DNA from: an uncultured virus (IMG/VR IMGVR_UViG_2576861513_000002) | Taxonomy: Duplodnaviria; Heunggongvirae; Uroviricota; Caudoviricetes | Reading direction: 5' to 3' (one strand) | DNA length: 64,000 nt | Virus record (IMG/VR): IMGVR_UViG_2576861513_000002 | In this document: in pieces, positions 4,402 to 52,554 of the stretch | Numbering within the stretch: position 1 is the first letter of the stretch | Layout: the number at the start of each line of letters is the position of its first letter | Position numbers and translations under genes: made by a program | Notes under the pieces: model-generated | Told to the model about the DNA's origin: nothing | The model's database searches: none | The model's input: the letters and a program-made list of their open reading frames with translations, nothing else

Positions 4402-5081
4402 TAGAGTATTGTCCCCCATGCTCCAACATCGAACCCGCCGATGTATTCGTTATCCATATCAAACCCAAAGAATTTAGAACCCTCGGATGGTGCTTCTACC
4501 GAGGGCGTTTCAACGTCACCGGCCCATACGCCAGCTGCTTTAACGGTGAGATAGCCCTGTTTGATAGCGGCGATCAGTTCGAGAGACACATCAGAAATAT
4601 CAGTCTCGGGAAAAACCCAGACCGAGATCGTCATGTCCTGGTTGTCGACGATTTGCATCTTCAGGCCAGAACCTGCGGTCGCAGCGTCAAGGATGGGTGG
4701 CAGCGAATCATTGCGGCCGTCCCAGTTGTTGATGGCGATTTTTGCTTTAAGAACGATGCGGTATGTCTCATCACTCAGAGTGGTGTAGCCCGCATCAGGA
4801 TCATACGGGCCTTGCCATACGCCCTGGTCATATCCGAGCCCGTCAGTGTCCCAGCTAAAATACACCCCGCTTATCGGCTGGCTGACGATGCGACTGCGAC
4901 CAATCCAGAGGCCAAGCGTATCGAGCTGGACGCCGACAGCGGTATCAATATCGAAAGCGCTTACCAGCCCCCGGGTGGCGCCGGTGATATCAATCAGTGG
5001 CCGCGTGCTCAGGTCAACGTGATCAAAAAATTTCGGCTTCGTGGCGTGATAGTTGGTGATTAGGTCCGTGTACTTGCTCAT
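4401..5081 (-). CDS. Baseplate wedge protein (DUF2612-like)
   Basis: FDIDTAVGVQLDTLGLWIG motif; lies between J and fibre. Confidence 0.88.
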   Translation of the reverse strand: MSKYTDLITNYHATKPKFFDHVDLSTRPLIDITGATRGLVSAFDIDTAVGVQLDTLGLWIGRSRIVSQPISGVYFSWDTDGLGYDQGVWQGPYDPDAGYTTLSDETYRIVLKAKIAINNWDGRNDSLPPILDAATAGSGLKMQIVDNQDMTISVWVFPETDISDVSLELIAAIKQGYLTVKAAGVWAGDVETPSVEAPSEGSKFFGFDMDNEYIGGFDVGAWGTIL

Positions 5082-6223
5082 GACGTCACCGTTAGAACAA
5101 TGTTTTCGGGTTTACACGACGCGGATTCGTTGTAGGCGATGATGATGTTTGCCGCCGCTACGCTACCGGCTGATTTGCCAATCAGCAGCTCCTGTATGTC
5201 GTAGTAGCGCGCATTGCCGCCACTCACTACGCCGAGGTTCGCCGGAGAATAAATCCTGCTCAGCAGCACATCGTCACCGATCGTCAGCCCGTTGATGTAA
5301 TCCGCGACAGCCTGCTGAATCTGTACGCCAATTTGCGACGTGTAGCCGTTGAATGCTTTCAGGGTGATATGTCCATAAATTGGCACATCAATAGACCGAG
5401 AAAAGCTGATCACGTGTGGATTGCCGTAGGTGTCCGGTACCGTGACAGAAGTTGTCCCGTAAGTTGCCGTTCCCTGCCCTTTGTTTCCCCGGATTGTCTG
5501 GGTTATTTCGGTAACATCCCCTCCATCGACGATGGCAGAAATGGAATGAGGCGGCAGCCCGTTGCTGTCGGTTGCACCAGTATCATTCTCGTAGAGCTTG
5601 TGACGCGTCACGCCTGCAACGTTGGCGATCGCACCGTCGACACCTTCAAACGGTGTGAGGGATGGTAGCGCTACGCTTTGCCCCTGCCTGATGCGCAGCT
5701 CTGCGTCCGTTTCAGCCGGTGCGCCTACGGTGGCCGCCGCCGGGTTGGTTACTGAAGCCCAGCCACGGGTCGGCGTGTTGATAGTGGTAATTGTCCCGGC
5801 CAGCGCCGCAACCGCTCCGCTGTTTGAACAGGTTGCAGTTACCGTCACGGTACCGCCGACACCGATTGTCACCGAGGCAGGAAGCCGCCAGATCACGTTA
5901 TTCGTGTCTTTCACGGTCCCGTTTGTGATGGATGTCCCGGCGGTACCGGTCAGAAGCAGATCCACGGTAGAGTTCGTCGCTCCCCGGCGCGCGATACCGT
6001 TAATTTTTACGTTACTCGTCAGTGCTGCACCGTAACCCGTAGCAGGTGAGAAGCAGTTATAAACGGAGATGGCCGTGTTGTTGGCATCGTGAATAGCCAG
6101 AGCCACCAGCGCCACCATCTGACCGTCTTTGCTGTCCGGCTCCAGATAAGCGTCACTGCCGTAAATCTGCTGGAAATAGCTTGTCAGGGTATCGAGTATC
6201 GTCTGGTAATCAGGCGCGCTGAT
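5078..6223 (-). pseudogene. Baseplate J-like gene, 3' part (interrupted by the satellite)
   Basis: Reads ISAPDYQTILDTLTSYFQQIYG...ETDAELRIRQ...; in-frame TGA immediately before ISAPDY; 5' part lies at 18911-18982. Confidence 0.92.
6207..6223 (+). repeat. Satellite att site (left)
   Basis: TAATCAGGCGCGCTGAT versus TAATCAGGCGCACTGAT at 18912-18928. Confidence 0.93.
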
Positions 6224-6316
6224 TCAATAACAATGATAATGTTATTGATATATATAGCTTTTATTTTAAAGGTAGTGAGAATCTAGTCCGTTAACTGTTC
6301 TTAGGTGTGCGAATTG

Positions 6317-6505
6317 CTATCTGCGAGGTGCAGGCTTACTCCAACGATATTCCGGGGCTGTCATGCGCTGGCGGTGCCTTTCCTTTGCGGCGAGCGCTCC
6401 TGCCACCCTGCGGCGTATCTCCAGCATGTCAGTAGCGTCTAAATCTCGCCCTTGCTTTGTTACCATCTCTGCTATTGCAGATTCGATTACATCAGATTTC
6501 AGCAT
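6317..6505 (-). CDS. Small basic hypothetical phage protein
   Basis: 62-aa ORF, co-oriented with the satellite genes. Confidence 0.65.
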   Translation of the reverse strand: MLKSDVIESAIAEMVTKQGRDLDATDMLEIRRRVAGALAAKERHRQRMTAPEYRWSKPAPRR

Positions 6506-6557
6506 GTAAGTTACTCATTACCAGAAGTGAAACTTAACGGCTACGGTCGCTCAACAT

Positions 6558-7082
6558 TCACCAGTACCGCCGGACAGTACTTAGCGAACATGACAGGCTT
6601 TCTGCTGCCAGCACCTGAGTTAATCCTGACCGTTTACAGCATTGTACCGCCTCACGCCGCTGCGCACTAATCCGCTCAAGACGTAGAGCACCATCAGTAA
6701 CCCGGCGCGTTCTCTGCTTTCGCTGCTCATGTCGAACTACCCGCTGCCTTTCCCTTTCCTCCTCTGCGGCTATCAGTATTTTTCTGGCCTCGATGTCTTC
6801 CGGGTAATTGTTGTACCAGTTGCGTTCGCGATACTGTGCTGGCCTGCTCCTGCTGAGTTTCGCTTCTTCCATCAGGCGCAGTATCACCCCATTGGCGGTA
6901 TCGCTGCGTGCTCTCAATTTCCTGACGGCTTTTTCAGAAACTCCAAAGTGAAAAGCCACCCGGTGATTACTCATAGCACGGTGCAGGTTCAGTACCGTGC
7001 GTAATACGTCAGTAAAGGTCTCCTCCGTCCACCAGATCCCCTTAAACCGGAAGCCATTTTCAGCGGCTGCTAAAACGTTCAT
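6558..7082 (-). CDS. Double-HTH DNA-binding protein; N-terminal HTH resembles helper TerS
   Basis: GAGG RBS; MSNHRVAFHFGVSEKAVRKLR and GLTQVLAAESLSCSLSTVRRYW. Confidence 0.65.
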   Translation of the reverse strand: MNVLAAAENGFRFKGIWWTEETFTDVLRTVLNLHRAMSNHRVAFHFGVSEKAVRKLRARSDTANGVILRLMEEAKLSRSRPAQYRERNWYNNYPEDIEARKILIAAEEERERQRVVRHEQRKQRTRRVTDGALRLERISAQRREAVQCCKRSGLTQVLAAESLSCSLSTVRRYW

Positions 7083-7352
7083 TTTTCCTCACTCTGTCCA
7101 CCATTGGCAAAAAACGGGACGTGCTCACGAACCCTCAAAAAGTCCGCGGCGTATCGATAACGGTAGAATGCGGCCTGCGCTCATGTGATATGCCGCACTT
7201 TGTCGGGCTACAGGCCGCGTCATTACTCATTTCTCCGCATTTTGTTGCTCACCCGTCCGGAAAGCGTGAAAAAGTGCGGTATTATCCAAAAATGGCTAGA
7301 TCGTCGCTTTCAGTCGATGAACCCGCATCACACCGGGAAAGTAAGGAGTTTA

Positions 7353-8378
7353 CTATATTCTCCTTACCCCTCCTCTCAGAGCGTTCTTGAGTGACGGTTT
7401 TTCGCGGAAAAGATGCCCGTAAATATTCAACGTCACCGACGGCCGGGAGTGGCCCACCATGTCCGACACGTCCAGAATATCAACGCCGTTTTTTACCAGG
7501 CTGGACACCGCAAAATGCCTCAGGTCATGAAAGCGCGCTATCCCGAATTCAGAGAGCAGGCGTTTCATCACGCCGGATGTGCTGTAGTTCAGGCTCAGCC
7601 TCTGTCCGTTGCTCCCGGCAATCAGCGGTGTATCCGTTCCCAGCAGCGTTTTATCGAGGCACTCATACAGGCCAACCGGCATATCGACGGAACGGCCCCT
7701 GCCGCGCTTTCTGCCCCGGATAATCCCGCGTGAAGTCAGATGGCAGCGAACCTGTATTTCGTCAGCGCTCACATCCCGATAGGTTAACGCCAACACTTCG
7801 CTGATACGCAGGCCGCAAGCCGCGCCCAGCCAGATAGCAATCCTTTCGCGCCGCTCTGCGCGATCCAGCATGGCTAACACGGTATCTTCATCCGGGATTT
7901 GCCACGGCCTGTCTGCCGGCGAACGGCTCTGACGAACCGGATTATGCGCAATCATCCCGGACCGCATGAGATAAGCAAAAGCCGCGCCGATGTACACAAG
8001 CGACTGTCGGTTAAGCCGCTCGCTAAGCTGGCGTGAAGTGATTTTATTCAGGTTTTTATTCAGCAGGTCAGACGGAAGGTTTAACAGGCAATAGCGGTAG
8101 CGGTCGTAACTGGTTGCCCTGATCCTGTTCCGGTTCAGCCTGTCACGCTGATATCCCAGCCAGAACCAGGAAAGTTTCTGCAGCGTCCAGCGTTTTACCG
8201 CCTCCGCATTGTCTGCCGTTCGCCAGTCGAGGGCTGCCACTTCCAGTTGATACAGCAGCGCCGCCGCATCGTCGATGCTGTGAAAGGTATTGCGTCGCCC
8301 GGTGCGGGTTTCTTTATCCAGCCAGTTAACGACATAACGCAGGCGCTTTCCGGCGCCAATCTCACGGATAGATGCCAT
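7353..8378 (-). CDS. Tyrosine recombinase, paralogue of helper 37363-38367
   Basis: GLRISE, HDLRH, GHS...YGH catalytic motifs; similar to the helper gene along its length. Confidence 0.9.
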   Translation of the reverse strand: MASIREIGAGKRLRYVVNWLDKETRTGRRNTFHSIDDAAALLYQLEVAALDWRTADNAEAVKRWTLQKLSWFWLGYQRDRLNRNRIRATSYDRYRYCLLNLPSDLLNKNLNKITSRQLSERLNRQSLVYIGAAFAYLMRSGMIAHNPVRQSRSPADRPWQIPDEDTVLAMLDRAERRERIAIWLGAACGLRISEVLALTYRDVSADEIQVRCHLTSRGIIRGRKRGRGRSVDMPVGLYECLDKTLLGTDTPLIAGSNGQRLSLNYSTSGVMKRLLSEFGIARFHDLRHFAVSSLVKNGVDILDVSDMVGHSRPSVTLNIYGHLFREKPSLKNALRGGVRRI

Positions 8379-8386
8379 GTTTCCCC

Positions 8387-8971
8387 CTACACACCCTGCA
8401 AAGGTAATTCCAGAGGACACCAGCTAAACACTGCTACCGGATGCTCATCGTTTCGCTGGCGGATCATGTTGATGAGAATATCCGCACGGGGTGATGACCT
8501 CATAATCGCGGCCAGCGTGGCTATTTTTGACGCCTCCGGGTTTCTCGCCTGATATTCGCCAATTTCAGCGCCCACAAGAGTTTTCAGCAATACATCGCCC
8601 TCCATGTCCGGATTTTCCCGCCGCATCTGGTCAAACTCTGCAGCGGCCGTCCGGCGGATAGGTATGTAAATCCGATCCTCTAAATCGCGTAATTTTCGGT
8701 GCGCATGCATCAGTACAGTGCCTCGTTTACCGCCCTCCTTCAGTTCCCCGAGTAATCCGGCGATGCGGCCACGAAATGCGGACACCTCGTCCTGTGGTAC
8801 AGGCGAATCAGGAATATAGCTCTCCAGAAGCGCTAACCTTGCCCGTATACGTTCTACAGCAGACACATTATTACTTACCGCTTCATCGGCCAGCACCTGC
8901 CTGTATGCAGGTAAACTTTCAATTTCCTGCGTATCAGAGCTGGTGTTTGCATTAGTAACACTATTTTTCAT
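8387..8971 (-). CDS. Hypothetical satellite protein
   Basis: 194-aa ORF ending 8 bp before the recombinase. Confidence 0.7.
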   Translation of the reverse strand: MKNSVTNANTSSDTQEIESLPAYRQVLADEAVSNNVSAVERIRARLALLESYIPDSPVPQDEVSAFRGRIAGLLGELKEGGKRGTVLMHAHRKLRDLEDRIYIPIRRTAAAEFDQMRRENPDMEGDVLLKTLVGAEIGEYQARNPEASKIATLAAIMRSSPRADILINMIRQRNDEHPVAVFSWCPLELPLQGV

Positions 8972-9165
8972 TTTAAGTTACCGTTCTCTCGGTCTGACAT
9001 TTAATACGGCTAACTCGATGGTTATTTTTTGCTCGTAAAACGCCATGAATCACCCAAATTAAAATGATACTAAATTGTTAACGCATATTCTTTTTGGGAC
9101 TATAAAAATGATTTTTATGTCTTTCCCATTGCATTTAGGACGTGTTTTAGAGAACTTGCTCTCAA

Positions 9166-9270
9166 GGTGTTCATGGTATTCATATTCGCGATATTAATCA
9201 TAATATTCATATAGATAAAGCATGAACACCAGTATTCATAACCCTTCATAAGTGTACATAGGTGTTCATG
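9166..9270. repeat. ATGAA(C/T)AC iteron cluster (crr/ori-like)
   Basis: Exact copies at 9167, 9176, 9222, 9232, 9262 plus variants, in AT-rich intergenic DNA. Confidence 0.75.
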
Positions 9271-9453
9271 CCCGCCGTTATTTACATAACATTTTATTAA
9301 CAGTAAATCCGTATGAACTTCTCTGCAATTGTCTTTCTACAATGGTGCTGTTGCTGTCGAGGTGTGGCTGGCTGTTTAAATCATCCTGCCATGTACGAAC
9401 ATTCTCTTTTTCTTCTGCCTCATGCTTTTGAGGCTTAATCTTTTCGATGTTAC

Positions 9454-10116
9454 TCATTGTGGTTTTCCTGTATTGCTTCCGCCGGACTGTACGCCGCCGT
9501 GAGTATGATTAACCTGGCTAATACCGTTAGCAGTCTGGTCGCCAGTGGAAGTTATCGAGCCGTTTACCTGTACTGGCCCGTTAAGGGTGATCTGTGGGCT
9601 GGTAATAGTGATAGCCCCACCAGCGGCCACTTCAACGAATGCCGAACCATCATCAGTGCGAAGTTGTGCAGCGCTGGTGCTGATACCGCTGATTTTTCGC
9701 GCCTGCGACTGCGGACCCGGTATAACGAACGCATCAGACAGATCCAAAACTCTCCCGTCAGCCCTCTCCTGTACACCGCCGTTCTGCCACCAGAAATCAA
9801 TACTACGCGACGAAAACACAATCAGGCATTCATCACCTTCTTTAACCGGGAAAGTCAGCGTAACGCCGCCACCGCGCGGGAAAACCACGGGCAAATCCTC
9901 AAGGATCGGATGGCGAACGGATTCATACTGGAAATCCTCAACCATTGTGCCGGCCTTTGTCATTCTTGCCGTAATGGCTATATCAACGTCGCAGGTGACA
10001 GTTTCCGGGTCGAATGAACGAATAACTCCGGGTAACGCATTGGTCACAGCTGCTTTGGCGTTATCCTGTACAAGCTGTGCTACATCCTGCTCGTCTGCAG
10101 GTCGAATGAATGGCAT
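9454..10116 (-). CDS. Satellite-encoded membrane-puncturing baseplate spike (Gp138/gpV-like)
   Basis: PVVFPRGGGVTLTFPVKEGDECL, IDFWWQNGG, C-terminal HTHGGVQSGG; paralogue of 19336-20091. Confidence 0.92.
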   Translation of the reverse strand: MPFIRPADEQDVAQLVQDNAKAAVTNALPGVIRSFDPETVTCDVDIAITARMTKAGTMVEDFQYESVRHPILEDLPVVFPRGGGVTLTFPVKEGDECLIVFSSRSIDFWWQNGGVQERADGRVLDLSDAFVIPGPQSQARKISGISTSAAQLRTDDGSAFVEVAAGGAITITSPQITLNGPVQVNGSITSTGDQTANGISQVNHTHGGVQSGGSNTGKPQ

Positions 10117-10125
10117 AGTCTCCCC

Positions 10126-10476
10126 TCACTCCTTCACGCGCTTACAATCAAATGTGCCAATTATCCGCCCCTGATTCAGGTTTGTGCGGATAAGCTCGAC
10201 GTTTAACCAATGCTTTTTGCTGCCGTCAGGATGAATATATTCAAACCCATACAGATTCCCATCACTAGCAGGCATGAGCGTCATCTCGACTTTCATTCCA
10301 TTTTGTCCAAGCTCAGTAATCTTTTGCGATGTGACCATTTCACCGTTTATCTCAGTCATTTCCCCTACTCTGGCAACCAGTGTAAAATTTCCACATTGAG
10401 TAGTTACGACGCTATTCGCTTCTGCCATACCGTTATATGAAATGACAACAGCCAGTAGGAAAAGTAGTTTTTTCAT
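10126..10476 (-). CDS. Exported (signal peptide) two-Cys protein, paralogue of 20570-20923
   Basis: MKKLLFLLAVV...AEA; shares QCG, INGExVTSQKI, LMPAxDGNxYGFEYI, IGxFxCKxV with the helper gene. Confidence 0.85.
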   Translation of the reverse strand: MKKLLFLLAVVISYNGMAEANSVVTTQCGNFTLVARVGEMTEINGEMVTSQKITELGQNGMKVEMTLMPASDGNLYGFEYIHPDGSKKHWLNVELIRTNLNQGRIIGTFDCKRVKE

Positions 10477-11573
10477 TCCGCTCCCCATCTATCATTTGTT
10501 GATTGTGAATATAGATCCGTATTGCCTCTCGCCTCGCACGCCAAATCCATATACCATGCTTGGCCTCGCGTGTCGCCTGTGTAACTGATATACCTGACCT
10601 TATACACACCATCAGTTGCTACACTGGCAGGCTGAGAAGTTGGCGGCGCTTCAATATATTGGCCTTTATCATCCTTGATATTTCCAATGGGGATAAGGTT
10701 GCCGTTTGTTTCTTTCTCAGAAAACCGCCCACTGTAAATATCCTGACGGGATAGCGCGGTACGATATACAGAAGCCTGATCCAGCTGAATGAGCCCGTTC
10801 AGGTGTATCTGTGGATTAATCAGACATTTGACATTAACACCTGCGCCGATTGTCTGTTGTGGCATGCCGATAAGCCCAGTATTAGCGTTAAGAACCACCG
10901 CTTCATGAGTCGCCTTGTCTCTGGAAACAATATCGACTTTTCCATAGTTGAATTTCCAGGTGGCTTTGCACTGCGCGGCCACTTCATCGAGATAGTTGTG
11001 AACATAGCCAAAAAGTGCTCGACCGCGAGGAAATACCGTTGGTGGAAATTCAGGAACAATACCGCGAGAAATACCGTAAGGCTCCAGATTGATCATTAGC
11101 GCCTCATAAATATCTTTCGTGGTATACCCCTTACTAATATTTGTGTTTATAAATGCGCTGGTAAATGCCTCCAAAGAATCACAGGCTTGCACCTGAATCC
11201 ACGAATCAACGCCATTATCTTTACCTGTCCAAGTAAAACGTATATCACCGCTGAAAATGACGCCGTGGTTTACACCGTTAACCTGTCCCACTTCGCTTGC
11301 TGATATTTCACGCGCGATACCCACATCACTCGCCCTTACATCCGGTGCAAGACCGTCATACCCCGTAATCATGACGATTTTTGCAAACTCACGTTGCATA
11401 ATCCGATTTTGCGTGTGCGAGGAAAGGTTGTAAATCTTAACAGTGGCTACAGCAGGCCATTTGTTATCGTTACGCTCTATTTGAAAAGTAACTTTGAAGT
11501 CACTCAGGCTGACCCCTTGCCCGTTCTCTCCCACAAGTTGTAGTTCGAAATGCCTCATCCAGTTTTTTGACAT
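10473..11573 (-). CDS. Satellite-encoded baseplate hub protein
   Basis: MSKNWMRHFELQLV...YTGDTRGQAWYMD; paralogue of 20926-21990. Confidence 0.88.
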   Translation of the reverse strand: MSKNWMRHFELQLVGENGQGVSLSDFKVTFQIERNDNKWPAVATVKIYNLSSHTQNRIMQREFAKIVMITGYDGLAPDVRASDVGIAREISASEVGQVNGVNHGVIFSGDIRFTWTGKDNGVDSWIQVQACDSLEAFTSAFINTNISKGYTTKDIYEALMINLEPYGISRGIVPEFPPTVFPRGRALFGYVHNYLDEVAAQCKATWKFNYGKVDIVSRDKATHEAVVLNANTGLIGMPQQTIGAGVNVKCLINPQIHLNGLIQLDQASVYRTALSRQDIYSGRFSEKETNGNLIPIGNIKDDKGQYIEAPPTSQPASVATDGVYKVRYISYTGDTRGQAWYMDLACEARGNTDLYSQSTNDRWGAE

Positions 11574-11596
11574 AATTGGTTCTCTATATTCAAAAA

Positions 11597-11621
11597 GAAA
11601 AAACCCGGCCTAATCGCCGGG
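11597..11621 (-). terminator. Intrinsic terminator upstream of the satellite hub gene
   Basis: CCCGGC-loop-GCCGGG followed by a T run on the minus strand. Confidence 0.65.
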
Positions 11622-11629
11622 CGTGAGAG

Positions 11630-12304: not shown

Positions 12305-12483
12305 GGTCAAATTGTCCTGTAACCTCGACGGGATTGTCGGTATGAATATTATACACGCAAACCATAAAATCAGATACAAAACATAACATCAACCACAAAA
12401 AGTGGTAAATAGGTGTAGAGTTCTGCTATTCTGTATTCGTGGGTACGGAATCCCCCACCGATTGCACAATCGTGATACTAAGC

Positions 12484-12515
12484 AAAGCCCGCGCCTTCCT
12501 TCGCGGGCTTTTTAT
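12484..12515. terminator. Terminator hairpin after the primase
   Basis: AAAGCCCGCG-loop-CGCGGGCTTT. Confidence 0.7.
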
Positions 12516-12519
12516 TTGC

Positions 12520-14862
12520 TTACTTCTTCGTCGGGTTGGGATAAGGCTGTGGCAGCCAGTCCTCAGCACTTCCTGAAAGTTCCACGTTGGTTACAACTCC
12601 TCGCGTCTTTCTCTCTTTCCGGTATTCGTGATTAAACTCGCGCATTGCGCTCTCCATGCCCTCAGCGAATTTATTAAGGGTTAGCGGCTTATCGAATCCG
12701 TTAGCCTCCAGAAAGGCCAGATACGCATGATAGAGATACACGCGCGGGTATAGTGGCGGATTGCGGTTCCCTACCAGCATTCCCGTACACTCTGACAGCT
12801 TTTCAAGGTATGCGCAGAAAGCATAAAGCGGGTCTGTTTTCTGTTTAACCTCCAGCGCTTCCTCACTGTTCCTCTGTTCCAACAAAAGCGCCCTTGCTTT
12901 CTCTGGATCAGAAAAGTTAGCCAGGAGCCGGCGGACAATAACCGGGATTTCTGCGGATATCTTTTCCGACAAATCGGGGTCTTTGTCTTCCTCTCGAACC
13001 CGGTTATTAAACTGAAAAATAACCCTACGGCGGGCAACGCCTCCGGCTCGTTCAGTGAAAATCATCGGAGTGTTGTTTGTAGCGACTACAACGGCCCTCA
13101 GAACGGCGGTGTACTGGTGTTCATGCTTCGGGTCAATCTCTACGGCATCGCCGCCCGTAATCGCTTTTATACCCGTTCCCTCGCCTGAATATTTTGGCTG
13201 GTCTGGTAGGGTTATCATACTTTTGCCTACGAACTGCGCCCGACCTCTGGCGCTATCCAGTGCGGCCATATTTCCGCTGGCCGTGTTGTGTTCGCCAGCC
13301 AGCATAGTAGCAATGTGAGTGAAAACGCTTTTGCCGCTACCTCCCTCCCCGGTTATCTCAAGAAAAAGCTGCCAGTCGTAGCGGTTCGCCAGCACCATAA
13401 AAAGCCCAGCGGCGATCCGCTTCATTTTAAGTGCGTCTCTTCCTGCTGTGTAACTTAGCCATTTATGGAAGTTTGGCGCATGGTCATGAAGGTTTTCACC
13501 AGGCTCCGGCGGCGTATAGATCACGCCGTTATCGTTAGTGAGCCAGTTGTGTAATGAATGCTGCGAGAAAGTCCCGGTTTCCATGTCGTACACGCCATTT
13601 TTGAACGGGATCAGGCTGCGGCGAGGTTGGCCCATAACCGGAATAACAATCTTCAACGCTTCAATAACGTTGTTTACTGAACGTTTGCTGAAATTAGTCT
13701 GATTTTCGTTGTAGATAGCTACCATTTCGCGGCTTAGTTCTAATGGTGCCGCTTTTATCCATACTCCTTCGCGGTACAGATACACAGCCTCGCTCTCTGC
13801 GTGAATGGCTATGCCCTCGTAGCGGTCTGCCAGCATCAGCGCTTTTTCATTATCCGCCATCTGGATCAGGTTGAGTTCTCCGCGCCCGCGCTTTTTACCG
13901 CCATCGACTACTTTAAGTTTTGCGCCCACACTTTCCCCCTCCGGCTGATACATCGAATCGTTAAATGCTGCTATAGCGGCTTCCAGTCCGTTTTGTCGGT
14001 GGTAGTCGTTCCAGTCCGCCTTGCAGTCCACAGGGGGCAAAGAAACCCAGCCAGCAACGGCTTTAGCGGCTTTCTCTGCACACTCCTTACCTGTGTTAAC
14101 TTTCACTTCTCCGCTTCTGTCACTTTCGGCGCACTGGTCATTATCTGCAGCAATGATGATCCACGCGTTCTGGTATTTTTTGCGCATCACCTGAGCAACG
14201 GGCAGCAGGTTCCCGGCGTCAATAGCTGCGATAATTGTCGCCTCAGTGCGGAACTGCTGAACCGAAAGCGCCGTTGCCAGCCCTTCGGCGATAATCACCG
14301 TTTCCGACGTTGCGCCGGAATTAACCACGCAAAAAGAGCCTTTCTTCACCGTTCCGGCCACCAGCCGCTTACTGCCATCAGGTTTAATCACCTGTGCGCC
14401 AGTCGCCGCACCAGCACCGTTTTTCAGCACCAGCAGCAGCGATCCGTCGGACAGCATCGGGAAGGGGCATTGAAGCCCCTTTGATGTAAGGTAAGCAGAC
14501 TGCCCCGGAGAGGCTTTCGCGGCCAGCGCCGCAACTTTCCCGGCGATATCCGTTTGAGGCTTCTCTCTGGCTTGCTTCGGTTCCGGCATAGGCAGCGACA
14601 TAGCTTCGGCCACCAGCTCAGCCGCTTCTCTCGGGCCGCACTGGTTGACCTTCATCACCAGATCCAGCCCAGTACCCGCACCACAGTGCGAACAGAAATA
14701 AGTTCCCCGGTTATCTTTATTGTCGAACCGGTAGCGAGTGTTGCCACCACACGCCGGACATGGCCCTTCTGCGCTGTTTGTAGGAATGGCAAGGCGCTCC
14801 ATAATTGCAGGCCAGTTATTATTAGCCCTGCTACGAATTTCATTAATGAAATTATCTTTCAC
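12520..14862 (-). CDS. P4 alpha-like primase-helicase
   Basis: Zn finger CPACGG...CSHCG, TOPRIM IAEGLATA / AADND, Walker A GEGGSGKS. Confidence 0.95.
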   Translation of the reverse strand: MKDNFINEIRSRANNNWPAIMERLAIPTNSAEGPCPACGGNTRYRFDNKDNRGTYFCSHCGAGTGLDLVMKVNQCGPREAAELVAEAMSLPMPEPKQAREKPQTDIAGKVAALAAKASPGQSAYLTSKGLQCPFPMLSDGSLLLVLKNGAGAATGAQVIKPDGSKRLVAGTVKKGSFCVVNSGATSETVIIAEGLATALSVQQFRTEATIIAAIDAGNLLPVAQVMRKKYQNAWIIIAADNDQCAESDRSGEVKVNTGKECAEKAAKAVAGWVSLPPVDCKADWNDYHRQNGLEAAIAAFNDSMYQPEGESVGAKLKVVDGGKKRGRGELNLIQMADNEKALMLADRYEGIAIHAESEAVYLYREGVWIKAAPLELSREMVAIYNENQTNFSKRSVNNVIEALKIVIPVMGQPRRSLIPFKNGVYDMETGTFSQHSLHNWLTNDNGVIYTPPEPGENLHDHAPNFHKWLSYTAGRDALKMKRIAAGLFMVLANRYDWQLFLEITGEGGSGKSVFTHIATMLAGEHNTASGNMAALDSARGRAQFVGKSMITLPDQPKYSGEGTGIKAITGGDAVEIDPKHEHQYTAVLRAVVVATNNTPMIFTERAGGVARRRVIFQFNNRVREEDKDPDLSEKISAEIPVIVRRLLANFSDPEKARALLLEQRNSEEALEVKQKTDPLYAFCAYLEKLSECTGMLVGNRNPPLYPRVYLYHAYLAFLEANGFDKPLTLNKFAEGMESAMREFNHEYRKERKTRGVVTNVELSGSAEDWLPQPYPNPTKK

Positions 14863-15077
14863 GGCATCACCTCGCCTACCAGATTAAATTCTTTGATAAA
14901 TCGTGATTCATTCAGAGTGCATGGAGATAAATAACCATCACGAATAAATGTCACTCTGTTGAATCGGTAACTTTCGACCGTCACAATATCTCCCCATCCA
15001 TCACGCCATTTATCGCCGTGTCTGATTTCAGGCTGAGTTAACCCGCTGGCAATTAAGCCAGATTTTTTCTTTTTCAT
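14859..15077 (-). CDS. DUF4222-like small satellite protein
   Basis: WRDGWGDIVTV...VTFIRDGY...C...RFIKEF; typical position before the primase. Confidence 0.75.
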   Translation of the reverse strand: MKKKKSGLIASGLTQPEIRHGDKWRDGWGDIVTVESYRFNRVTFIRDGYLSPCTLNESRFIKEFNLVGEVMP

Positions 15078-15080
15078 TGG

Positions 15081-15302
15081 TTACACCCCTGTATTCGGCT
15101 TGTAAGCGTCCCGAACTTTCACCAGCTCAATAATGCCGTCATGCAGTAGCGACATGACTGCACTCACTTTGCATGCCTCTGCGTGGCGTTCAGCGTCATT
15201 AGGAATGCTGTCGATCCACATACTCAGAACCGCCATAGCTTCTTCACTGGAATTAAGCGCACTTTCTGCATGAAGCAGGACTTCAAAAGGAATCTGTTTC
15301 AT
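15081..15302 (-). CDS. Hypothetical satellite protein
   Basis: Translationally coupled small ORF. Confidence 0.7.
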   Translation of the reverse strand: MKQIPFEVLLHAESALNSSEEAMAVLSMWIDSIPNDAERHAEACKVSAVMSLLHDGIIELVKVRDAYKPNTGV

Positions 15303-15493
15303 TTCTTATCTCCCTTACCCAATTCGGCAATTAATGCGCGGTGTATTTCATGATTGAAGTCACACGCAATGGAAATCAGGTTTAGAAGCGTGACAGAGCA
15401 TTCATCTGTGGCTTTCTCCAGAATAGTTTCGTAGAGCGATGCGGCCAGTGCAGATTTATATTCGGCCTGGATCAAACTGATTGACTCACGCAT
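15299..15493 (-). CDS. Hypothetical satellite protein
   Basis: Translationally coupled small ORF. Confidence 0.65.
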   Translation of the reverse strand: MRESISLIQAEYKSALAASLYETILEKATDECSVTLLNLISIACDFNHEIHRALIAELGKGDKK

Positions 15494-16364
15494 TAGATAC
15501 CTCCATTGCCAGGCGAGACTGAATCGCTGCGGCTTTGCTGCCTAACTGCAGATAGGTACGAGTTATCGCTGGGTTGCTATGCCCAAGCATTTCAGAGGCA
15601 ATTAAAAGCCCCTGCTCGCCACCGGCTGACATGAGGTTAAATGCTGCGATCTTCCGGCTTGAATAGGCACTTAGGCGCAATTTTGTATTGATAAAGCGGG
15701 TAAACCACGCCATCACGCTTTGGAGTTTTCGCCAGATGGTCTGGCGGGTAACGCTACCTTCCAGACACTGGCAACGGTTACTTTCGATTTGAGAGCGGGA
15801 AAATATCAGGTCGTCCTCTACCAGATTCCGATCCTGACGTTCGCGAAGCCGTTTGATGATGCCCGGCGGTAACTGTTTGGTGTCGTGCTTAACGTCTGCT
15901 TTAGCCACCAGCCCGAATACTATCGCCTGTTCTTCGTCGGTCATATCCGCTGCCAGCGCATCACAGTTGATGCTGTCCCACTTCATGTAGGCGATATGGT
16001 CAGCGGCAAGCCTCGCGGCGTCCTTGCGCTGCTGGCGCACGATTTCAATGCCTTTGCGGGTCGCCCGCGCTTCGGCAGCTTTGGTCTGTTTGGCAACGAT
16101 AATTGTCGCCTGCCCCGTTTCCCAATTGATGCAGGAATAGCGCAGGTTGCAAACGTCGCTGGTACGCCAGCCGGTTACGGTCGCAATGTCCCACCAGAGC
16201 AGCACCCAATCCGGTTGTGTCTGCTGTATGCGTTCGCGTAGCTTGCGCTGTTCGTCACGGTCATAAACTGGCGTCATTGTGCGACTGCCCTTTGTGCTTG
16301 CCGCTTTAACGACATTGCCGCGCAGTTCACGGGCTTTGGCTGTCAGTGTCTGGAGGTTAAACAT
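15486..16364 (-). CDS. Tyrosine recombinase-family protein
   Basis: TGWRTSD, YSSRK, LGHS...TYL motifs. Confidence 0.85.
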
Positions 16365-16602
16365 TGTGCACCTCCAGCATTTCCGGAGTCAGGAGGTTCA
16401 GGCCATAAGATCCACAGCCAGAATCACGCAGGCTGCTTTCAGTGCGGATTTTTGCGGCAAAGGTCAGATTCCAGCATGGAAAGGTATCGCGGGCTTCTTC
16501 TTCGGTATCAGCCATTGTGCGCAATACGATTGGTGTGCAGTCGTGTTTTTTCGGTGTGGCCAGAAACAGCCAGGTATATTTGGGGCAGGTTGGTTTAGCC
16601 AT
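16357..16602 (-). CDS. Icd-like host cell division inhibitor
   Basis: YTWLFLA...ADTEEEAR...LTFAAKIR; follows a C4-type RNA. Confidence 0.8.
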
Positions 16603-16655
16603 TTTAGCGGCTCCTATGTCGAATGAAGGAGTCTCGCCAGATGCTGCTAAACATG

Positions 16656-16734
16656 GGTGGCGAGACGTGACGGGGTTAGCAGACTGGTGACATAGAAACC
16701 AGCAGGCCGAAGCCTCCCCACCACGCCCCGCCAT
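16656..16734 (-). ncRNA. C4/CI-type antisense immunity RNA
   Basis: Cloverleaf-like ATGGCGGGGCGTGGTGGGG...CCCCGTCACGTCTCGCCACC; its loops CTATGTC and CTGCTAA are complementary to sites at ~16800-16822 and ~16615-16652. Confidence 0.8.
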
Positions 16735-16928
16735 AAATCGGGGGTATAGGTGAATTACGGGCGTAAAAATACCGCTATACGGAAATCAGCGGCTACCCGC
16801 TATGTCAGTCAGGCTGCTAAACCCGGCACCCGTTTTGTGAGGTGCGAAATAATCATAACCATGCCCGCCATGTTGACGCAAGCGCTTTATAACATCCGGC
16901 GAATTTTTCCGGGGAAAGAACCTCGCTT

Positions 16929-17032
16929 TATGAACACTATGAATACCCTATGAATACCTTAGATAAAGGTGTTCATAGCCTATCTATCTGATTTTTAATA
17001 CCTATATTCAAATCATGAACACTATGAATACC
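16929..17032. repeat. ATGAA(C/T)AC iteron cluster (putative satellite ori)
   Basis: Six copies at 16930, 16939, 16950, 16969 (inverted), 17015, 17024. Confidence 0.78.
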
Positions 17033-17172
17033 TTTGTGCATTTTTCTGCAAACATTCCACCGCCGCCCGATGAAATGCCTTTCTCTGGCTGGTGTAAGTT
17101 ACCGTTGCTGGCAACAGACAATAAAAAAGGCTTGCCCCTTTCGGTAACAAGCCCCGTCTATTTGCTCCGCTT

Positions 17173-17385
17173 TCATGCGGTACAGATCCCGCGCTTTTCA
17201 CTTTGTTTCCCGATCCACGCTTCAACCTCGTCACGATACCAGCAGTTACGGCCTCCCACTTTAAAAGGCATCGGAAAACCGTTTCCCTCATCTTTGAGGA
17301 AATCATAGAACGCAGAATCAGAACGGTAGCGAAGACGCGCTTTAACCTCGCCTTTAAGTAGTATTTCACTATTCGATTCAGACAT
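17173..17385 (-). CDS. alpA: AlpA-family regulator / excisionase
   Basis: FPMPFKVGGRNCWYRDEVEAWI. Confidence 0.88.
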   Translation of the reverse strand: MSESNSEILLKGEVKARLRYRSDSAFYDFLKDEGNGFPMPFKVGGRNCWYRDEVEAWIGKQSEKRGICTA

Positions 17386-17508
17386 AAAAACCTCCGTATA
17401 TATATGAATCAATTATAACAAATTTGAATAAAAAAGATACATTTCGGCGTTTGAATGGAATAAAAAAAAACTGGCATCTAGCCAGCAATAAACGTCGAGT
17501 TTTGAGGA

Positions 17509-18741
17509 CTAACCTATCAGCCTTAATCCTTTATCGCCCTTTGTCTCAAGCAGTTCTCCGCGCTCTGCGCTATCGACATAATCCCCCCACCACTGCATGA
17601 GCATACGCCGCTGTTCAAAGTAATCAGTACGATTGTAGATATTGCGGATCGCGTTCCTGCTTCTGTGAGCAAGTGCCGCCTCAATAACATCAGGGTTAAA
17701 CCCTTCTTCATTCAGCACAGTAGATGCAAGCGACCTAAGCCCGTGAGTAACTACCTCTCCGCTTAGCGATGTTTTATGAATAGCGATCTGCCCGGTACAT
17801 TTCCCAATCGGCTTATCTCCCTTTTTGCCGGAAGGAAAAATAAACGCCCCGCGCCGCCATTTTTCAGCATTGCGTAAAACAGCTATTGCTTGCGCGGACA
17901 GCGGTACAGCGTGTGGCCTTTTCCCCTTCATTCTTTCAGACGGAATTTTCCAAACAGCACTGTCTAAATCAATTTCGTCCCAAACAGCCAGGCGAGCCTC
18001 AGAGGGCCTTACCATCGTTAAAAGCTGGAAGTAAACACACAGCCTTATCGGCTCCCACATACTCAGCCCCAGCCATTCAGAAAGGAACACAGGCAATCTG
18101 CCTTTATCCATCACGGGCATTGGTACGCTTCTTTTGGCTGGGAAAGCCTTGCCGATTTTTAGCAGGCAATTATGGTCAATGACTCCGGTGTTTACCGCAT
18201 AATCCATTACCGAATTGAGCACAACTATCATCTTTTCCACAGAGGCGGGACGATCTGCAAACTCTCTCATTGCCTGAATTGTTGAGGCGGCATTCATTTT
18301 ATGTACCGGCTCGTCACCAAGAACACTATTCAGCGTTTTTAAAGCCCCCTCGTAGCCTCGAATTGTATTGCTGCGGATTCCCTCCGTGATTTTTATTTTC
18401 AGCCAGTTATCAGCGATAACAGAAAACTGCTGTGCATGTTTTTTCCGCTTGTCGCTGAGTTCTTCTTTTTTAACCTCATTCGGATCTATCCCTCTGGCAA
18501 CTTTCCTTCTGGCTTCTTCTCTCGCCTCTCTCGCTTCTGCGAGACTAAATTCAGGATATCGCCCAATAGTTAAGGTCTGCCTTTTTCCGGTTATGGGGTG
18601 CGCATAGCGGAATCGCCATGATTTCCCACCGGACTTAGTTACATACAGAAGGAGTCCAAAGCCATCATGAAGACTGTAATCTTTAAGCTGTGGCTTCGCG
18701 TTCTTAACTTCTGCGTTGGTAAGTGGTTTAACAAGCATCAT
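17509..18741 (-). CDS. int: P4-family integrase of the satellite
   Basis: DGFGLLLYV, GRYPEFSLAEARE, VRPSEAR, HGLRS, LAH...YNRTDY; adjacent to att. Confidence 0.96.
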   Translation of the reverse strand: MMLVKPLTNAEVKNAKPQLKDYSLHDGFGLLLYVTKSGGKSWRFRYAHPITGKRQTLTIGRYPEFSLAEAREAREEARRKVARGIDPNEVKKEELSDKRKKHAQQFSVIADNWLKIKITEGIRSNTIRGYEGALKTLNSVLGDEPVHKMNAASTIQAMREFADRPASVEKMIVVLNSVMDYAVNTGVIDHNCLLKIGKAFPAKRSVPMPVMDKGRLPVFLSEWLGLSMWEPIRLCVYFQLLTMVRPSEARLAVWDEIDLDSAVWKIPSERMKGKRPHAVPLSAQAIAVLRNAEKWRRGAFIFPSGKKGDKPIGKCTGQIAIHKTSLSGEVVTHGLRSLASTVLNEEGFNPDVIEAALAHRSRNAIRNIYNRTDYFEQRRMLMQWWGDYVDSAERGELLETKGDKGLRLIG

Positions 18742-18910
18742 CAGCCCCTTTCACTGCTTCCGCTGTGGTTTCTTTCGTAGTCCCACTTATGGCGAATTGA
18801 ACCCCAGATAGACGAATGCAATCGAATGGATTCAAACACCATAAGCAGGGACTAAACCCAGCAACACCGCGCTTTATTGAACGTTAACGTATTGATTCAT
18901 AGATATTAAA

Positions 18911-18982
18911 ATAATCAGGCGCACTGATCCCCTCAGCGGTTACCGTTGCCGATAAGCCGAGTGTGTCCAAATTGAGGGCCAT
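18911..18982 (-). pseudogene. Baseplate J-like gene, 5' 24 codons
   Basis: MALNLDTLGLSATVTAEGISAPDY; ATG abuts the stop of the upstream wedge gene; reads on into FNIYESIR-stop inside the satellite. Confidence 0.92.
18912..18928 (+). repeat. Satellite att site (right)
   Basis: 16/17 match to 6207-6223. Confidence 0.93.
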
Positions 18983-20091: not shown

Positions 20092-20109
20092 TTGGTAGGC
20101 TCCAGAAAG

Positions 20110-20133
20110 CAAAAACCCGCCGGGTGGCGGGTT
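20110..20133 (-). terminator. Intrinsic terminator
   Basis: AACCCGCC-loop-GGCGGGTTTTT. Confidence 0.72.
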
Positions 20134-20554: not shown

Positions 20555-20569
20555 AGTCCATTAATTACT

Positions 20570-52518: not shown

Positions 52519-52554
52519 TTTCAGACGCGAGTTCAACTCCCGCCAGCTCCACCA
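52519..52554 (+). repeat. Prophage att site (displaced ssrA 3' end)
   Basis: 34/36 match to 1495-1530. Confidence 0.95.

What the first reader, a model, noticed from the sequence alone, without database searches (positions are those of the whole stretch)
5078..18982. Satellite integrated inside an essential tail gene of its own helper prophage
Seen: baseplate J is split after codon 24 (MALNLDTLGLSATVTAEGISAPDY | QTILDT...) by a 12.7 kb element bounded by TAATCAGGCGC(G/A)CTGAT. The core has dyad arms ATCAG...CTGAT and the mismatch is synonymous (Ser). No replacement start is supplied: an in-frame TGA precedes the 3' part and the 5' part ends as a 32-aa peptide. Precise excision restores a 399-aa ORF. 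Known: P4, PICIs and cf-PICIs normally use host chromosomal att sites such as tRNA genes. Inference: this satellite targets the helper genome itself, so it is always co-resident with a helper, and tailed particles can form only once the satellite has excised (an excision-gated switch).
Basis: partly seen in the sequence, partly recalled or inferred. Interest (0 to 1): 0.93.

Follow-up and report, generated by a model that had tools for sequence, protein, structure and literature searches.

The report
Satellite embedded in helper prophage baseplate gene
A 12.7-kb phage satellite sits inside the baseplate J gene of the prophage it probably exploits; this arrangement was published in 2023 for lambda-like phages, and here it appears with a different integrase lineage, a contractile-tailed helper and new target genes.

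Summary
Baseplate J of an ssrA-integrated, contractile-tailed prophage is split after codon 24 by a 12,705-bp element bounded by a 17-bp repeat. Ten related prophages carry the intact 399-aa gene with the empty site.

The element looks like a PICI/P4-type satellite. It has an integrase, AlpA, a C4/CI-type RNA, an Icd-like gene, DUF4222 and a primase. It has no head, packaging or lysis genes. It also carries its own baseplate hub and spike genes.

It is not new. Tommasini, Mageeney and Williams (2023, PMC10111431) described 491 "helper-embedded PICIs" and showed excision experimentally for one of them.

What is new here is the lineage. The integrase is only 26% identical to their founder, and their attP motif is absent. 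In IMG/VR, E. coli and GTDB genomes I found 27 relatives forming one clade, in a FastTree of 36 integrases. Its subclades match different late-gene targets in this helper family: J, a Gp24-like head gene and the major capsid gene. Three relatives on single branches sit at other head or portal genes.

Excision was not shown directly. One public run holds both the occupied and the empty junction. Verdict: a real feature and a new variant of a known kind, of moderate interest.

The parts
1507..1530 (+). Left att repeat of the composite prophage (3' end of ssrA/tmRNA, GTTCAACTCCCGCCAGCTCCACCA)
   Evidence: The 24-bp repeat recurs at 52531-52554. tmRNA lies at 1167-1530.
52531..52554 (+). Right att repeat of the composite prophage. 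The composite spans 1531-52554 = 51,024 bp, so the helper alone is 38,319 bp.
   Evidence: The helper integrase lies at 51223-52395.
5078..6206 (-). 3' part of baseplate J (codons 25-399), preceded by the core and an in-frame TGA
   Evidence: Pfam Baseplate_J 4.6e-14. PHROG 6 baseplate wedge 1.3e-60.
6207..6223 (.). att core copy next to J-C (attR in J orientation), TAATCAGGCGCGCTGAT
6224..18928 (-). Helper-embedded satellite, 12,705 bp counting one core. All assigned genes are co-oriented with J.
6317..6505 (-). 62-aa protein (PHROG 7271), function unknown
6558..7082 (-). 174-aa protein with a C-terminal HTH (sigma-70 region-4-like, below cut-offs), function unknown
   Evidence: The Atlas gave leads only, all under 0.9.
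7353..8420 (-). Secondary tyrosine recombinase (355 aa), 45% identical to a helper-internal recombinase at 37363-38376
8387..8971 (-). 194-aa protein, no family match
9454..10116 (-). Satellite copy of the baseplate central spike (gpV-type, Apex motif), 52% identical to the helper spike at 19336-20112
10126..10488 (-). PHROG 3443 protein, paralogue of helper gene 20570-21004
10473..11573 (-). Satellite copy of the baseplate hub (PHROG 196), 55% identical to the helper hub at 20926-21990
11630..12379 (-). 249-aa protein, no family match. Its relatives sit at the same place in related satellites.
12520..14862 (-). Primase-helicase (Zn ribbon, Toprim, D5_N, DUF5906, Pox_D5). Its C-terminal part is 46% identical to the 11capE primase.
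14859..15077 (-). DUF4222 protein
15486..16364 (-). 292-aa tyrosine-recombinase-like protein. It is 90-97% conserved across satellites whose primary integrases differ by up to 45%.
16357..16734 (-). Icd-like protein (125 aa)
   Evidence: NCBIfam NF033153, 1.5e-17
16653..16738 (-). C4 antisense RNA (the P1 C4 / P4 CI immunity-RNA family)
   Evidence: Rfam RF01695, 75.1 bits against a gathering score of 45
17173..17412 (-). AlpA/Xis-like protein; the likely start is at 17385
   Evidence: 84% identical to a RefSeq 'AlpA family' protein of E. coli ET791. Pfam AlpA E 0.007, below the cut-off.
17509..18741 (-). Primary integrase (410 aa: Arm-DNA-bind_3, Phage_int_M, Phage_integrase)
   Evidence: A terminator-like hairpin follows at 17486-17470; none was found between the J fragment and int.
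18912..18928 (.). att core copy next to J-N (attL in J orientation), TAATCAGGCGCACTGAT
18884..18982 (-). 5' part of J: 24 genuine codons followed by 8 satellite-encoded codons and a stop (32 aa)
18983..19336 (-). Helper baseplate W (gp25-like), directly upstream of J
   Evidence: PHROG 120, 1.5e-38

Best explanation
The 12.7-kb insert is a PICI/P4-type phage satellite integrated site-specifically inside baseplate gene J of its presumed helper. The helper is a 38.3-kb temperate phage with a contractile tail, itself integrated at ssrA.

In the lysogen J is split, and the distal tail genes (J 3' part, DUF2612 'I', fibre, Tfa) sit behind 12.7 kb of satellite.

Proposed sequence after induction (inferred):
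1. The composite excises from ssrA and replicates.
2. Helper late transcription runs through W and the 24-codon J stub into the satellite int gene. No terminator was detected in between.
3. Int and AlpA recombine the two 17-bp cores. This releases a 12.7-kb circle and restores the 399-codon J.
4. The satellite replicates with its own primase-helicase and is packaged by helper proteins.

Shown: the anatomy, the precise empty sites, purifying selection, the recurrence of the arrangement, and the clade-wide preference for late genes.
Inferred: the timing, the read-through, the packaging and the role of the satellite's own hub and spike genes.

The arrangement is the 'helper-embedded satellite' published in 2023, here in a separate integrase clade and a separate helper family.
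For: Anatomy and the empty site:
- Precise 17-bp repeat, 0 expected by chance.
- 10 of 11 J places found in 81 genomes of the genus are intact, all 399 aa from the J start, with the empty site. The 11th, in G001, is split exactly as in the window.

Gene content:
- Integrase, AlpA-like, C4 RNA, Icd-like, DUF4222 and primase are present. No head, terminase or lysis gene was found.
- All assigned genes are co-oriented with J.

The helper looks complete: repressor, cro, replication, Q, lysis, terminase, portal, head, sheath, tube, tape measure, hub, spike, W, I, fibre.

Recurrence of the same configuration:
- G001, at about 94% nt identity, with perfect repeats.
- A contig of run X5.
- IMG/VR L036 and L037 (Int 98-99%), and L038 and L039 (Int 82%, J only 69-74% identical).

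Selection, window versus G001: dN/dS is 0.040 for J-C, 0.017 for W, 0.034 for int, 0.078 for the primase and 0.092 for the satellite spike, at dS 0.09-0.24. J codons 1-53 are conserved in the 10 intact homologues.

Clade-wide tropism: in a FastTree of 36 integrases, the 27 late-gene-embedded ones form one clade (support 100).
- Subclades match sites: J 5, Gp24-like 11, major capsid 8 (seven mapped plus L049, whose site is unread). Three single branches lie at other head or portal genes.
- The capsid gene is split in 5 of 5 records checked, and J in 3 of 3.
- The nearest chromosomal relatives (about 40% identity) sit at ssrA in 9 of 11 loci.

Run X6: the contig graph holds the occupied junction and the restored-J junction side by side. 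The satellite contig has depth 10.6 against 22-23 for the flanks.

Precedent: the published 11capE showed composite excision, then replication, then satellite excision (PMC10111431, Results read).
Against: - No direct evidence of excision, an attP circle or packaging for this element. No attP joint appeared in the contigs laid.
- The two RNA runs laid gave no usable coverage: 30 partial reads and 0 reads.
- The window's two cores differ at one base (T/C). That base may lie in the strand-exchange region and could lower excision in this strain.
- The chromosomal flank (94.0% to G001) is about as diverged as the prophage (94-98%). The composite could therefore be an old, vertically inherited and possibly domesticated resident.
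- Low dN/dS is also known for domesticated defective prophages (recalled: Bobay et al. 2014).
- X6 may simply hold two strains or two prophage copies.
- G001 has a second prophage with an intact J (91% aa). It could supply J in trans, so gating need not be absolute.
- No packaging-redirection gene (terS, ppi, rpp, sid, psu) was recognised.
- In the published case no infectious particles of helper or satellite were recovered (PMC10111431, Results).
Confidence: 0.8

Rival explanations
1. Fossil or domesticated composite. An integrative island once hit J of a resident prophage and inactivated tail production for good. The whole block is now inherited vertically, and its genes are kept for host benefit rather than for phage or satellite transfer.
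For: The chromosomal flank and the prophage diverge from G001 by similar amounts: 94.0% against 94-98%. Window and G001 share the same ssrA site and the same J site. No excision product was seen. The window's two cores carry a 1-base heterology.
Against: - Both halves of J and the N-terminal stub remain under strong purifying selection (dN/dS 0.04). This is hard to explain if J can never be reassembled.
- Int, AlpA and the primase are intact and constrained.
- G001 has perfect repeats.
- dS within the satellite is mosaic (0.03 to 0.87), and the hub/249-aa segment has been replaced. This points to ongoing exchange with other satellites.
- Occupied and empty forms coexist in run X6.
- The same site is used by an 82%-identical integrase in a J that is only 69-74% identical.
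Confidence: 0.1
2. A mobile island of phages rather than a satellite. The element integrates into phage genomes and travels as cargo inside the packaged phage genome, or only by co-inheritance. It is not separately packaged at the helper's expense.
For: No packaging-interference or capsid-size gene was recognised. IMG/VR lists the 50-57 kb composites as complete proviruses. The cargo is variable.
Against: - The composite (51.0 kb) is 133% of the helper (38.3 kb). That is hard to fit into a head sized for the helper, and it would leave J broken in the infecting genome.
- The element has its own primase-helicase and a C4/Icd immunity module typical of P4/PICI satellites.
- The satellite is almost exactly one third of the helper (ratio 3.02). 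That fits packaging of a trimer in a helper-sized head, as recalled for P4/P2.
Confidence: 0.07
3. Accidental secondary-site insertion by an integrase whose normal target is chromosomal.
For: The published HE-PICI integrases do show off-target events (28 cases; PMC10111431, Results). Integrases about 40% identical to this one use ssrA.
Against: The integrases at 82-99% identity examined (G001, L036-L039) lie in J. Those at 53-63% identity with readable upstream sequence lie in other late genes of phages. None of the 4 loci scanned for tRNA genes had one.
Confidence: 0.02

Closest known systems
Helper-embedded PICIs (HE-PICI; founder Eco567.11capE in E. coli NRG857c; Tommasini, Mageeney & Williams 2023, PMC10111431)
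   Same: - Integrated inside a late gene of the helper prophage, co-oriented with it, with no replacement gene end in attP.
- Int + AlpA, then an Icd/C4-type zone, then DUF4222 + primase, then a variable 'late zone' with captured helper late genes.
- A secondary integrase related to one in the helper.
- An integrase clade whose subclades follow the target site.
   Different: - The integrase is only 26% identical (80 bits) to 11capE Int, against their 400-bit survey cut-off.
- Their doubled TGTATTGC attP motif is not at the att ends.
- The helper is a contractile-tailed phage with DUF2213/DUF2184 head genes, not a lambdoid. Both names occur 0 times in their supplement.
- The targets are baseplate J, a Gp24-like gene, a DUF2184 capsid gene and portal genes.
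- The captured genes are a baseplate hub and spike.
- Their Bro-N domains were not detected.
Satellite P4 of phage P2
   Same: P4-type integrase architecture (Arm-DNA-bind_3), an AlpA-type regulator, a C4/CI-family immunity RNA next to an Icd-like gene, and a large primase-helicase. It is about one third of the helper genome (12.7 against 38.3 kb; the P4/P2 ratio is recalled).
   Different: No psu, delta or sid was recognised. It integrates in the helper rather than at a chromosomal tRNA gene. It carries tail genes.
Gram-negative PICIs (such as EcCICFT073) and cf-PICIs
   Same: An int-alpA-primase backbone, a size of 11-15 kb, and dependence on a helper for virion parts (inferred here).
   Different: Those use chromosomal sites. 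PICIs redirect packaging (rpp, ppi, terS), and cf-PICIs build their own capsids and take only tails. Here no head or packaging gene is seen, and tail-tip genes are carried instead. SatelliteFinder treats tail genes as 'forbidden' in satellites (PMC10085698, passages seen).
Regulated gene integrity / 'active lysogeny' switches (such as the prophage in Listeria comK; recalled)
   Same: A gene is split by an integrative element and becomes functional only after precise excision.
   Different: Here the split gene belongs to another mobile element, the helper phage. The regulation would serve the satellite, as argued in the Discussion of PMC10111431.

Membership tests
Helper-embedded satellite (HE-PICI configuration) | Integrated within, and disrupting, a late gene of a surrounding prophage, with no replacement end supplied | tested here: met
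   J is split after codon 24, with a TGA before the 3' part and a 32-aa stub. The surrounding prophage is bounded by 24-bp ssrA repeats.
Helper-embedded satellite (HE-PICI configuration) | Key satellite genes (int, alpA, primase) co-oriented with the interrupted late gene | tested here: met
   All lie on the minus strand, like J.
Helper-embedded satellite (HE-PICI configuration) | Four ordered zones: Integration, Bro/immunity, Replication, Late | tested here: inconclusive
   Integration (int, AlpA-like), immunity (C4 RNA, Icd-like), replication (DUF4222, primase) and late (hub, spike) zones lie in that order. No Bro-N domain was detected.
Helper-embedded satellite (HE-PICI configuration) | Precise excision after helper induction, restoring the late gene | not testable with these tools
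   Only indirect evidence: occupied and empty junctions coexist in run X6, and there are empty sites in 10 homologues.
Published HE-PICI integrase clade (11capE relatives) | Integrase scoring at least 400 bits against 11capE Int, inside the HE-PICI clade | tested here: not met
   80 bits and 26% identity. 11capE lies far outside the clade in both trees.
Published HE-PICI integrase clade (11capE relatives) | Doubled tgTGTATTGCa motif about 81 bp upstream and 132 bp downstream of the attP centre | tested here: not met
   No TGTATTGC (up to 1 mismatch) lies within the att-proximal 300 bp. The nearest, at 18364, is inside int. No equivalent repeat was found.
P4-like satellite (SatelliteFinder sense) | psu-delta-sid capsid-size operon | tested here: not met
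   No such family appeared among 18 + 12 ORF scans with Pfam, PHROGs and NCBIfam.
P4-like satellite (SatelliteFinder sense) | P4-type integrase, alpha-type primase, AlpA, CI-type RNA | tested here: met
PICI (Gram-negative) | int, alpA, pri-rep; about 10-15 kb; no lysis genes | tested here: met
   Size 12,705 bp.
PICI (Gram-negative) | No tail genes (a 'forbidden' component), and packaging interference by terS, ppi, rpp or capsid genes | tested here: not met
   Hub and spike genes are present. No packaging gene was recognised.
Phage satellite in general | Mobilised in particles made by a helper phage | not testable with these tools
   No particle data. The size ratio of 3.02 to the helper is only suggestive.

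The most novel reading that the evidence does not exclude
A second integrase lineage, not nested in the published HE-PICI clade, has specialised on late genes of a contractile-tailed phage family. Many of its satellites keep their own baseplate hub-spike cassette under purifying selection. If that cassette is built into helper tails, these would be the first satellites that remodel the tail tip rather than the capsid or packaging. The possible payoffs are tails fitted for satellite delivery or host range, and sabotage of helper tails. On this reading, excision from J would time the supply of the wedge to the satellite's own hub.
Probability: 0.2. Interest if true: 0.75.

Novelty: new variant of a known kind. 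Interest (0 to 1): 0.45.

Why it matters
It shows that living inside the helper's late genes is not peculiar to one integrase clade of lambdoid-phage PICIs. It recurs in a separate integrase lineage and in a myovirus-type helper family, with at least three well-supported target sites: baseplate J, a Gp24-like head gene and the major capsid gene.

These elements carry tail genes, which current satellite finders treat as disqualifying, so they are likely to be missed or called part of the prophage. Prophage annotation will also report such helpers as defective ("J pseudogene") when they may be fully inducible.

The conserved satellite hub-spike cassette gives a concrete, testable question about tail-level parasitism.

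Tried and rejected
- Own assembly: a search of the window's own assembly was not possible because it is not held. I worked from G001 and relatives instead.
- Genome-contig scan with the single integrase: only a 27%-identical Sphingomonas hit, which was useless.
- Phage collection (megablast of the element): 5 trivial hits.
- E. coli megablast of the whole element: 168 of 5426 genomes had partial matches and none covered 80% or more. These matches served as leads to ABWA45 and ET791.
- HE-PICI attP motif: sought and not found.
- PADLOC on 13 unknown or cargo proteins: 0 hits.
- ESM Atlas: the 174-aa protein gave HTH/Terminase_5-type leads only, all under 0.9; the 249-aa protein gave nothing.
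- The 174-aa protein against the ET791 DUF2280 protein and the helper terS-like protein: no similarity. The 194-aa against the helper 200-aa protein: none. The 249-aa against helper PHROG 817: none.
- RNA raw-read runs X21 and X24: 30 partial reads on a primase stretch and 0 reads. This is no test of expression.
- First direct-repeat script for the Gp24 site found nothing at 9 bp or more. Reading the junctions showed a 7-bp block, CTGTACC.
- The careful IQ-TREE run did not finish, so a quick tree was reported and FastTree was used for the larger set.
- The search in the genus of G140 added nothing, because that genus holds one genome.
- Earlier findings of this scan: none on record.
- Not run: structure prediction, complex prediction and the large protein searches. 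They would not have changed the verdict.

Full report
OBSERVATION

The 17-base string TAATCAGGCGCRCTGAT occurs exactly twice in the window, at 6207-6223 and 18912-18928. No match was expected in 100 shuffles.

On the minus strand an ORF starts at 18982, directly after the baseplate W gene (18983-19336; PHROG 120). It reads MALNLDTLGLSATVTAEGISAPDY and then runs into FNIYESIR-stop, giving 32 aa. At the other repeat copy the frame reads TGA, then ISAPDY QTILDT..., and continues for 375 further codons to 5078. This part is Pfam Baseplate_J and PHROG 6. The single mismatch is AGT versus AGC, both Ser.

Joining the parts inside a script gives 399 codons plus a stop, with no internal stop.

EMPTY SITES

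A search of the 81 genomes of the genus with the J 3' part found 11 places in 10 genomes. The place in G001 that is collinear with the window is split in the same way (open frame 381 aa). The other ten are intact, all 399 aa from the J start. They carry the uninterrupted site GGGATCAGTGCGCCTGATTACCAG or close variants. The insert is therefore a discrete 12,705-bp element, counting one core.

SETTING

The window opens with ratA, smpB and the tmRNA gene (1167-1530). A 24-bp repeat of the tmRNA 3' end recurs at 52531-52554. It bounds a 51,024-bp composite prophage.

Without the insert the prophage is 38,319 bp and looks complete. It has an integrase, an S24-type repressor and cro, helicase and primase, a Q-like antiterminator, holins, endolysin and spanin. 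It has a terS-like gene, terL, portal, head morphogenesis, DUF2213-type protease/scaffold, a Gp24-like gene and the major capsid gene. It also has connectors, sheath, tube, chaperone, tape measure, hub, spike, W, J, a DUF2612 "I" protein, fibre and Tfa.

THE INSERT

All assigned genes are co-oriented with J. In order from the J 5' side they are:
- a 410-aa P4-type integrase;
- an AlpA-like protein, 84% identical to a RefSeq "AlpA family" protein;
- a C4/CI-family antisense RNA (75 bits; gathering score 45) overlapping an Icd-like gene;
- a 292-aa recombinase-like gene, two small ORFs and DUF4222;
- a 780-aa primase-helicase and a 249-aa unknown protein;
- a baseplate hub (55% identical to the helper's), a PHROG 3443 protein, and a gpV-type spike (52% identical to the helper's);
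- a 194-aa unknown protein;
- a second tyrosine recombinase, 45% identical to one inside the helper at 37363-38376;
- a 174-aa HTH protein and a 62-aa protein.

No head, terminase, lysis, psu/sid/delta or defence family was recognised. This is the backbone of a PICI/P4-type satellite with an unusual tail-gene cargo.

ALREADY PUBLISHED

A full-text search found Tommasini, Mageeney and Williams, NAR Genomics and Bioinformatics 2023 (PMC10111431). I read its abstract, Results parts 1-3 and Discussion, and searched its supplement.

The paper describes "helper-embedded PICIs":
- There are 491 elements at 14 sites in cognates of lambda late genes.
- They are co-oriented with the interrupted gene and carry no replacement end in attP.
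- For the founder 11capE, qPCR and deep sequencing showed composite excision, then replication, then satellite excision.
- The elements have four zones: Int/AlpA, Bro with C4-type RNAs, replication, and a late zone with captured helper late genes.
- Some have secondary integrases related to the helper's.
- The integrase clade has subclades that follow the target site.

A second search for "helper-embedded" or "HE-PICI" returned 6 papers. None of their titles or abstract openings, as listed, concerns baseplate targets. Of those six, I opened only this paper and PMC10085698.

WHAT IS DIFFERENT HERE

- Their survey was a TBLASTN with 11capE Int at 400 bits or more. I fetched 11capE from E. coli NRG857c. 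The window's integrase matches its integrase at 26% identity and 80 bits. The primase C-terminal halves are 46% identical.
- Their doubled TGTATTGC attP motif is not near this element's ends.
- Their main text never mentions baseplate, myovirus, spike, sheath, contractile or tail fiber.
- In the supplement "baseplate" occurs 3 times. The 2 occurrences I saw are gene-content profiles, not sites. DUF2213 and DUF2184, the head genes of this helper family, occur 0 times.
- The E. coli records I found (CP022154, CP026202) are not in the supplement.

A CLADE WITH THE SAME HABIT

The closest integrase in the GTDB genomes searched is G001's (99%). The next best in 61 relatives are 42% or lower. Of the 11 such loci fetched, 9 lie beside tmRNA, 1 beside tRNA-Met and 1 beside neither.

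A draw of 401 genomes of the family gave one more close relative, G140 (62%). Partial DNA matches in E. coli led to strains ABWA45 and ET791 (Int 63%).

In G140 and both E. coli strains the element lies in a prophage of the same family. It interrupts the Gp24-like gene after about codon 6, at a 7-bp block CTGTACC. In E. coli complete genomes, 4 of 5426 carry this occupied junction. The other 335 matching genomes match only the DUF2213 side, ending at the junction; in the rows listed the Gp24-like gene follows directly.

An IMG/VR scan with an integrase alignment returned 70 loci. I analysed the 24 with 43% identity or more (L036-L059). The other 46 (29-44%) were not examined. The results are:
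- 4 lie directly after W, in J (Int 98-99% and 82%).
- 8 lie after DUF2213, in the Gp24-like gene (63%).
- 7 lie inside the major capsid gene, after about residue 134 (55-56%).
- 1 lies inside a portal gene (61%; a partial contig).
- 3 lie directly after or at the end of other head genes (PHROG 241, 6268, 21).
- 1 has too little upstream sequence to tell.

No tRNA gene was found in the 4 loci scanned. The capsid gene is split into two parts 11-14 kb apart in 5 of 5 records checked. J is split in 3 of 3.

In a FastTree of 36 integrases, the 27 late-gene-embedded ones form one clade (support 100). The J (5), Gp24 (11) and capsid (8, seven mapped plus L049, whose site is unread) subclades each have support 100. 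The ssrA integrases form a separate clade, and 11capE is far outside on a branch longer than 2. An IQ-TREE quick tree of 19 rows agrees.

Caveats on the trees: FastTree and quick methods, midpoint rooting, one founder sequence from the published clade, and ssrA relatives sampled from one genus.

In the J group the attP-derived arms keep a perfect dyad through paired changes: ATCAG...CTGAT in the window and ATAAG...CTTAT in L038. This speaks for integrase core sites.

IS IT ALIVE?

Window versus G001:
- dN/dS is 0.040 for the J 3' part (dS 0.24), 0.017 for W, 0.034 for int, 0.078 for the primase, 0.046 for the 292-aa gene and 0.092 for the satellite spike. It is 0.01-0.16 for most helper structural genes.
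- dS within the satellite is mosaic, from 0.03 to 0.87. The hub/249-aa segment is replaced or heavily diverged, as are part of the helper spike and its neighbour.

J codons 1-24 and 25-53 show many synonymous but few replacement changes against the ten intact homologues. Against G074, for example, pS is 0.60 and 0.88 while pN is 0.06 and 0.02. A product started at ATG 6118 would therefore lack a constrained region.

Laying public runs on 5000-19600 gave:
- X5: one contig spans both junctions, which adds another occupied genome.
- X6, a 306-Mb contig set: the flank contigs have depth 22.4 and 23.3, and the satellite contig (6195-18941) has depth 10.6. One contig begins with 13 bases that match 12 of the 13 bases of the J 3'-side flank, followed by the core and the J 5' side. 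That is the restored-J junction, coexisting with the occupied one.

This fits excision or a mixed population. It does not prove excision, and no attP joint was seen. The RNA runs gave no coverage.

POINTS AGAINST

- The chromosomal flank is 94.0% identical to G001, similar to the prophage. Vertical inheritance of an old composite is therefore possible.
- The window's cores differ by one base, which might hamper recombination.
- G001 also carries a second prophage with an intact J (91% aa) and an unoccupied site that differs by one base. J could be supplied in trans there.

MECHANISM (INFERRED)

- No terminator-like hairpin lies between the J stub and int, while one follows int directly (17486-17470). 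Helper late transcription could therefore drive int.
- Until excision, J and the genes behind it (I, fibre, Tfa) are separated from the late operon by 12.7 kb.
- The satellite is 1/3.02 of the helper. This would let a trimer fill a helper-sized head, as recalled for P4 in P2 heads. I give this little weight.
- The role of the hub-spike cassette is unknown. It is present in the window, G001 and G140, and in 8 of the 24 IMG/VR loci within the DNA held. It is absent from L036, whose Int is 99% identical, and from the two annotated E. coli elements (ABWA45, ET791).
- G140's helper has its own hub, spike, W and J, 95-99% identical to the window's. The satellite copies are therefore extra, not replacements.

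VERDICT

This is a new variant: a distinct integrase clade, a contractile-tailed helper family, new target genes and a tail-tip cargo. It is of moderate interest.

Noticed in passing
window 52555-64000: A second island lies in tandem at the ssrA repeat. It has its own P4-type integrase (52640-53950, 51% identical to ssrA-type integrases). It is followed by an 8xMP membrane protein, a 994-aa protein with no family, a receiver-domain-like protein, a PNP_UDP_1 phosphorylase-family protein and a DUF4145 protein. This looks like a defence-type cargo.
   Followed up: no
window 37363-38376 (with 36516-37118): The helper carries a 337-aa tyrosine recombinase between the spanin gene and a terS-like HTH gene. 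It is 45% identical to the satellite's secondary recombinase (7353-8420). Neither has an arm-binding domain, and their role is unknown.
   Followed up: partly
window 15486-16364; also L036-L057, G140, E. coli ABWA45/ET791: The 292-aa recombinase-like gene next to the Icd/C4 module is 90-97% identical in protein across satellites whose primary integrases are only 55-63% identical. DNA matches over this gene and the adjoining Icd-like gene (mostly about 80% identity) account for most of the listed rows among the 168 E. coli genomes that match the element.
   Followed up: partly
window 16900-17060 (minus strand): Repeated GGTATTCATAG-type units lie between the AlpA-like gene and the C4 RNA. They are candidate operator or origin iterons.
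   Followed up: no
window 1531-52554 and 6224-18928: The satellite (12,705 bp) is almost exactly one third of the helper without it (38,319 bp); the ratio is 3.02.
   Followed up: partly
window 10353-12297 and 19397-20580, compared with G001: The satellite hub/249-aa segment and the helper spike C-terminal part with its 140-aa neighbour are the most diverged or replaced stretches between two otherwise 94-98% identical composites. Both baseplate centre-pieces are diversification hotspots.
   Followed up: partly
window 49848-50069: A ParE-like toxin domain protein (73 aa) lies in the helper's early/accessory region, with a 74-aa neighbour that could be its antitoxin.
   Followed up: no
window 40733-42219: Two accessory genes lie between Q and the holins: PHROG 6804 (313 aa) and PHROG 4603, annotated as sialyltransferase-like (182 aa). 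They may be a surface-modification moron.
   Followed up: no
L030 6601-6830 / L031 (E. coli Gp24-site elements): At the Gp24 site the 3' gene part begins with an in-frame ATG two codons after the junction, and RefSeq annotates it as a full gene. Interruption there may be leaky, unlike at J.
   Followed up: no
G001:C1:999734-1000858 (L025, L034): G001 holds a second related prophage with an intact J. Its site differs from the satellite core by one base (ATTAG instead of ATCAG) and is unoccupied, although the satellite is in the same genome.
   Followed up: partly
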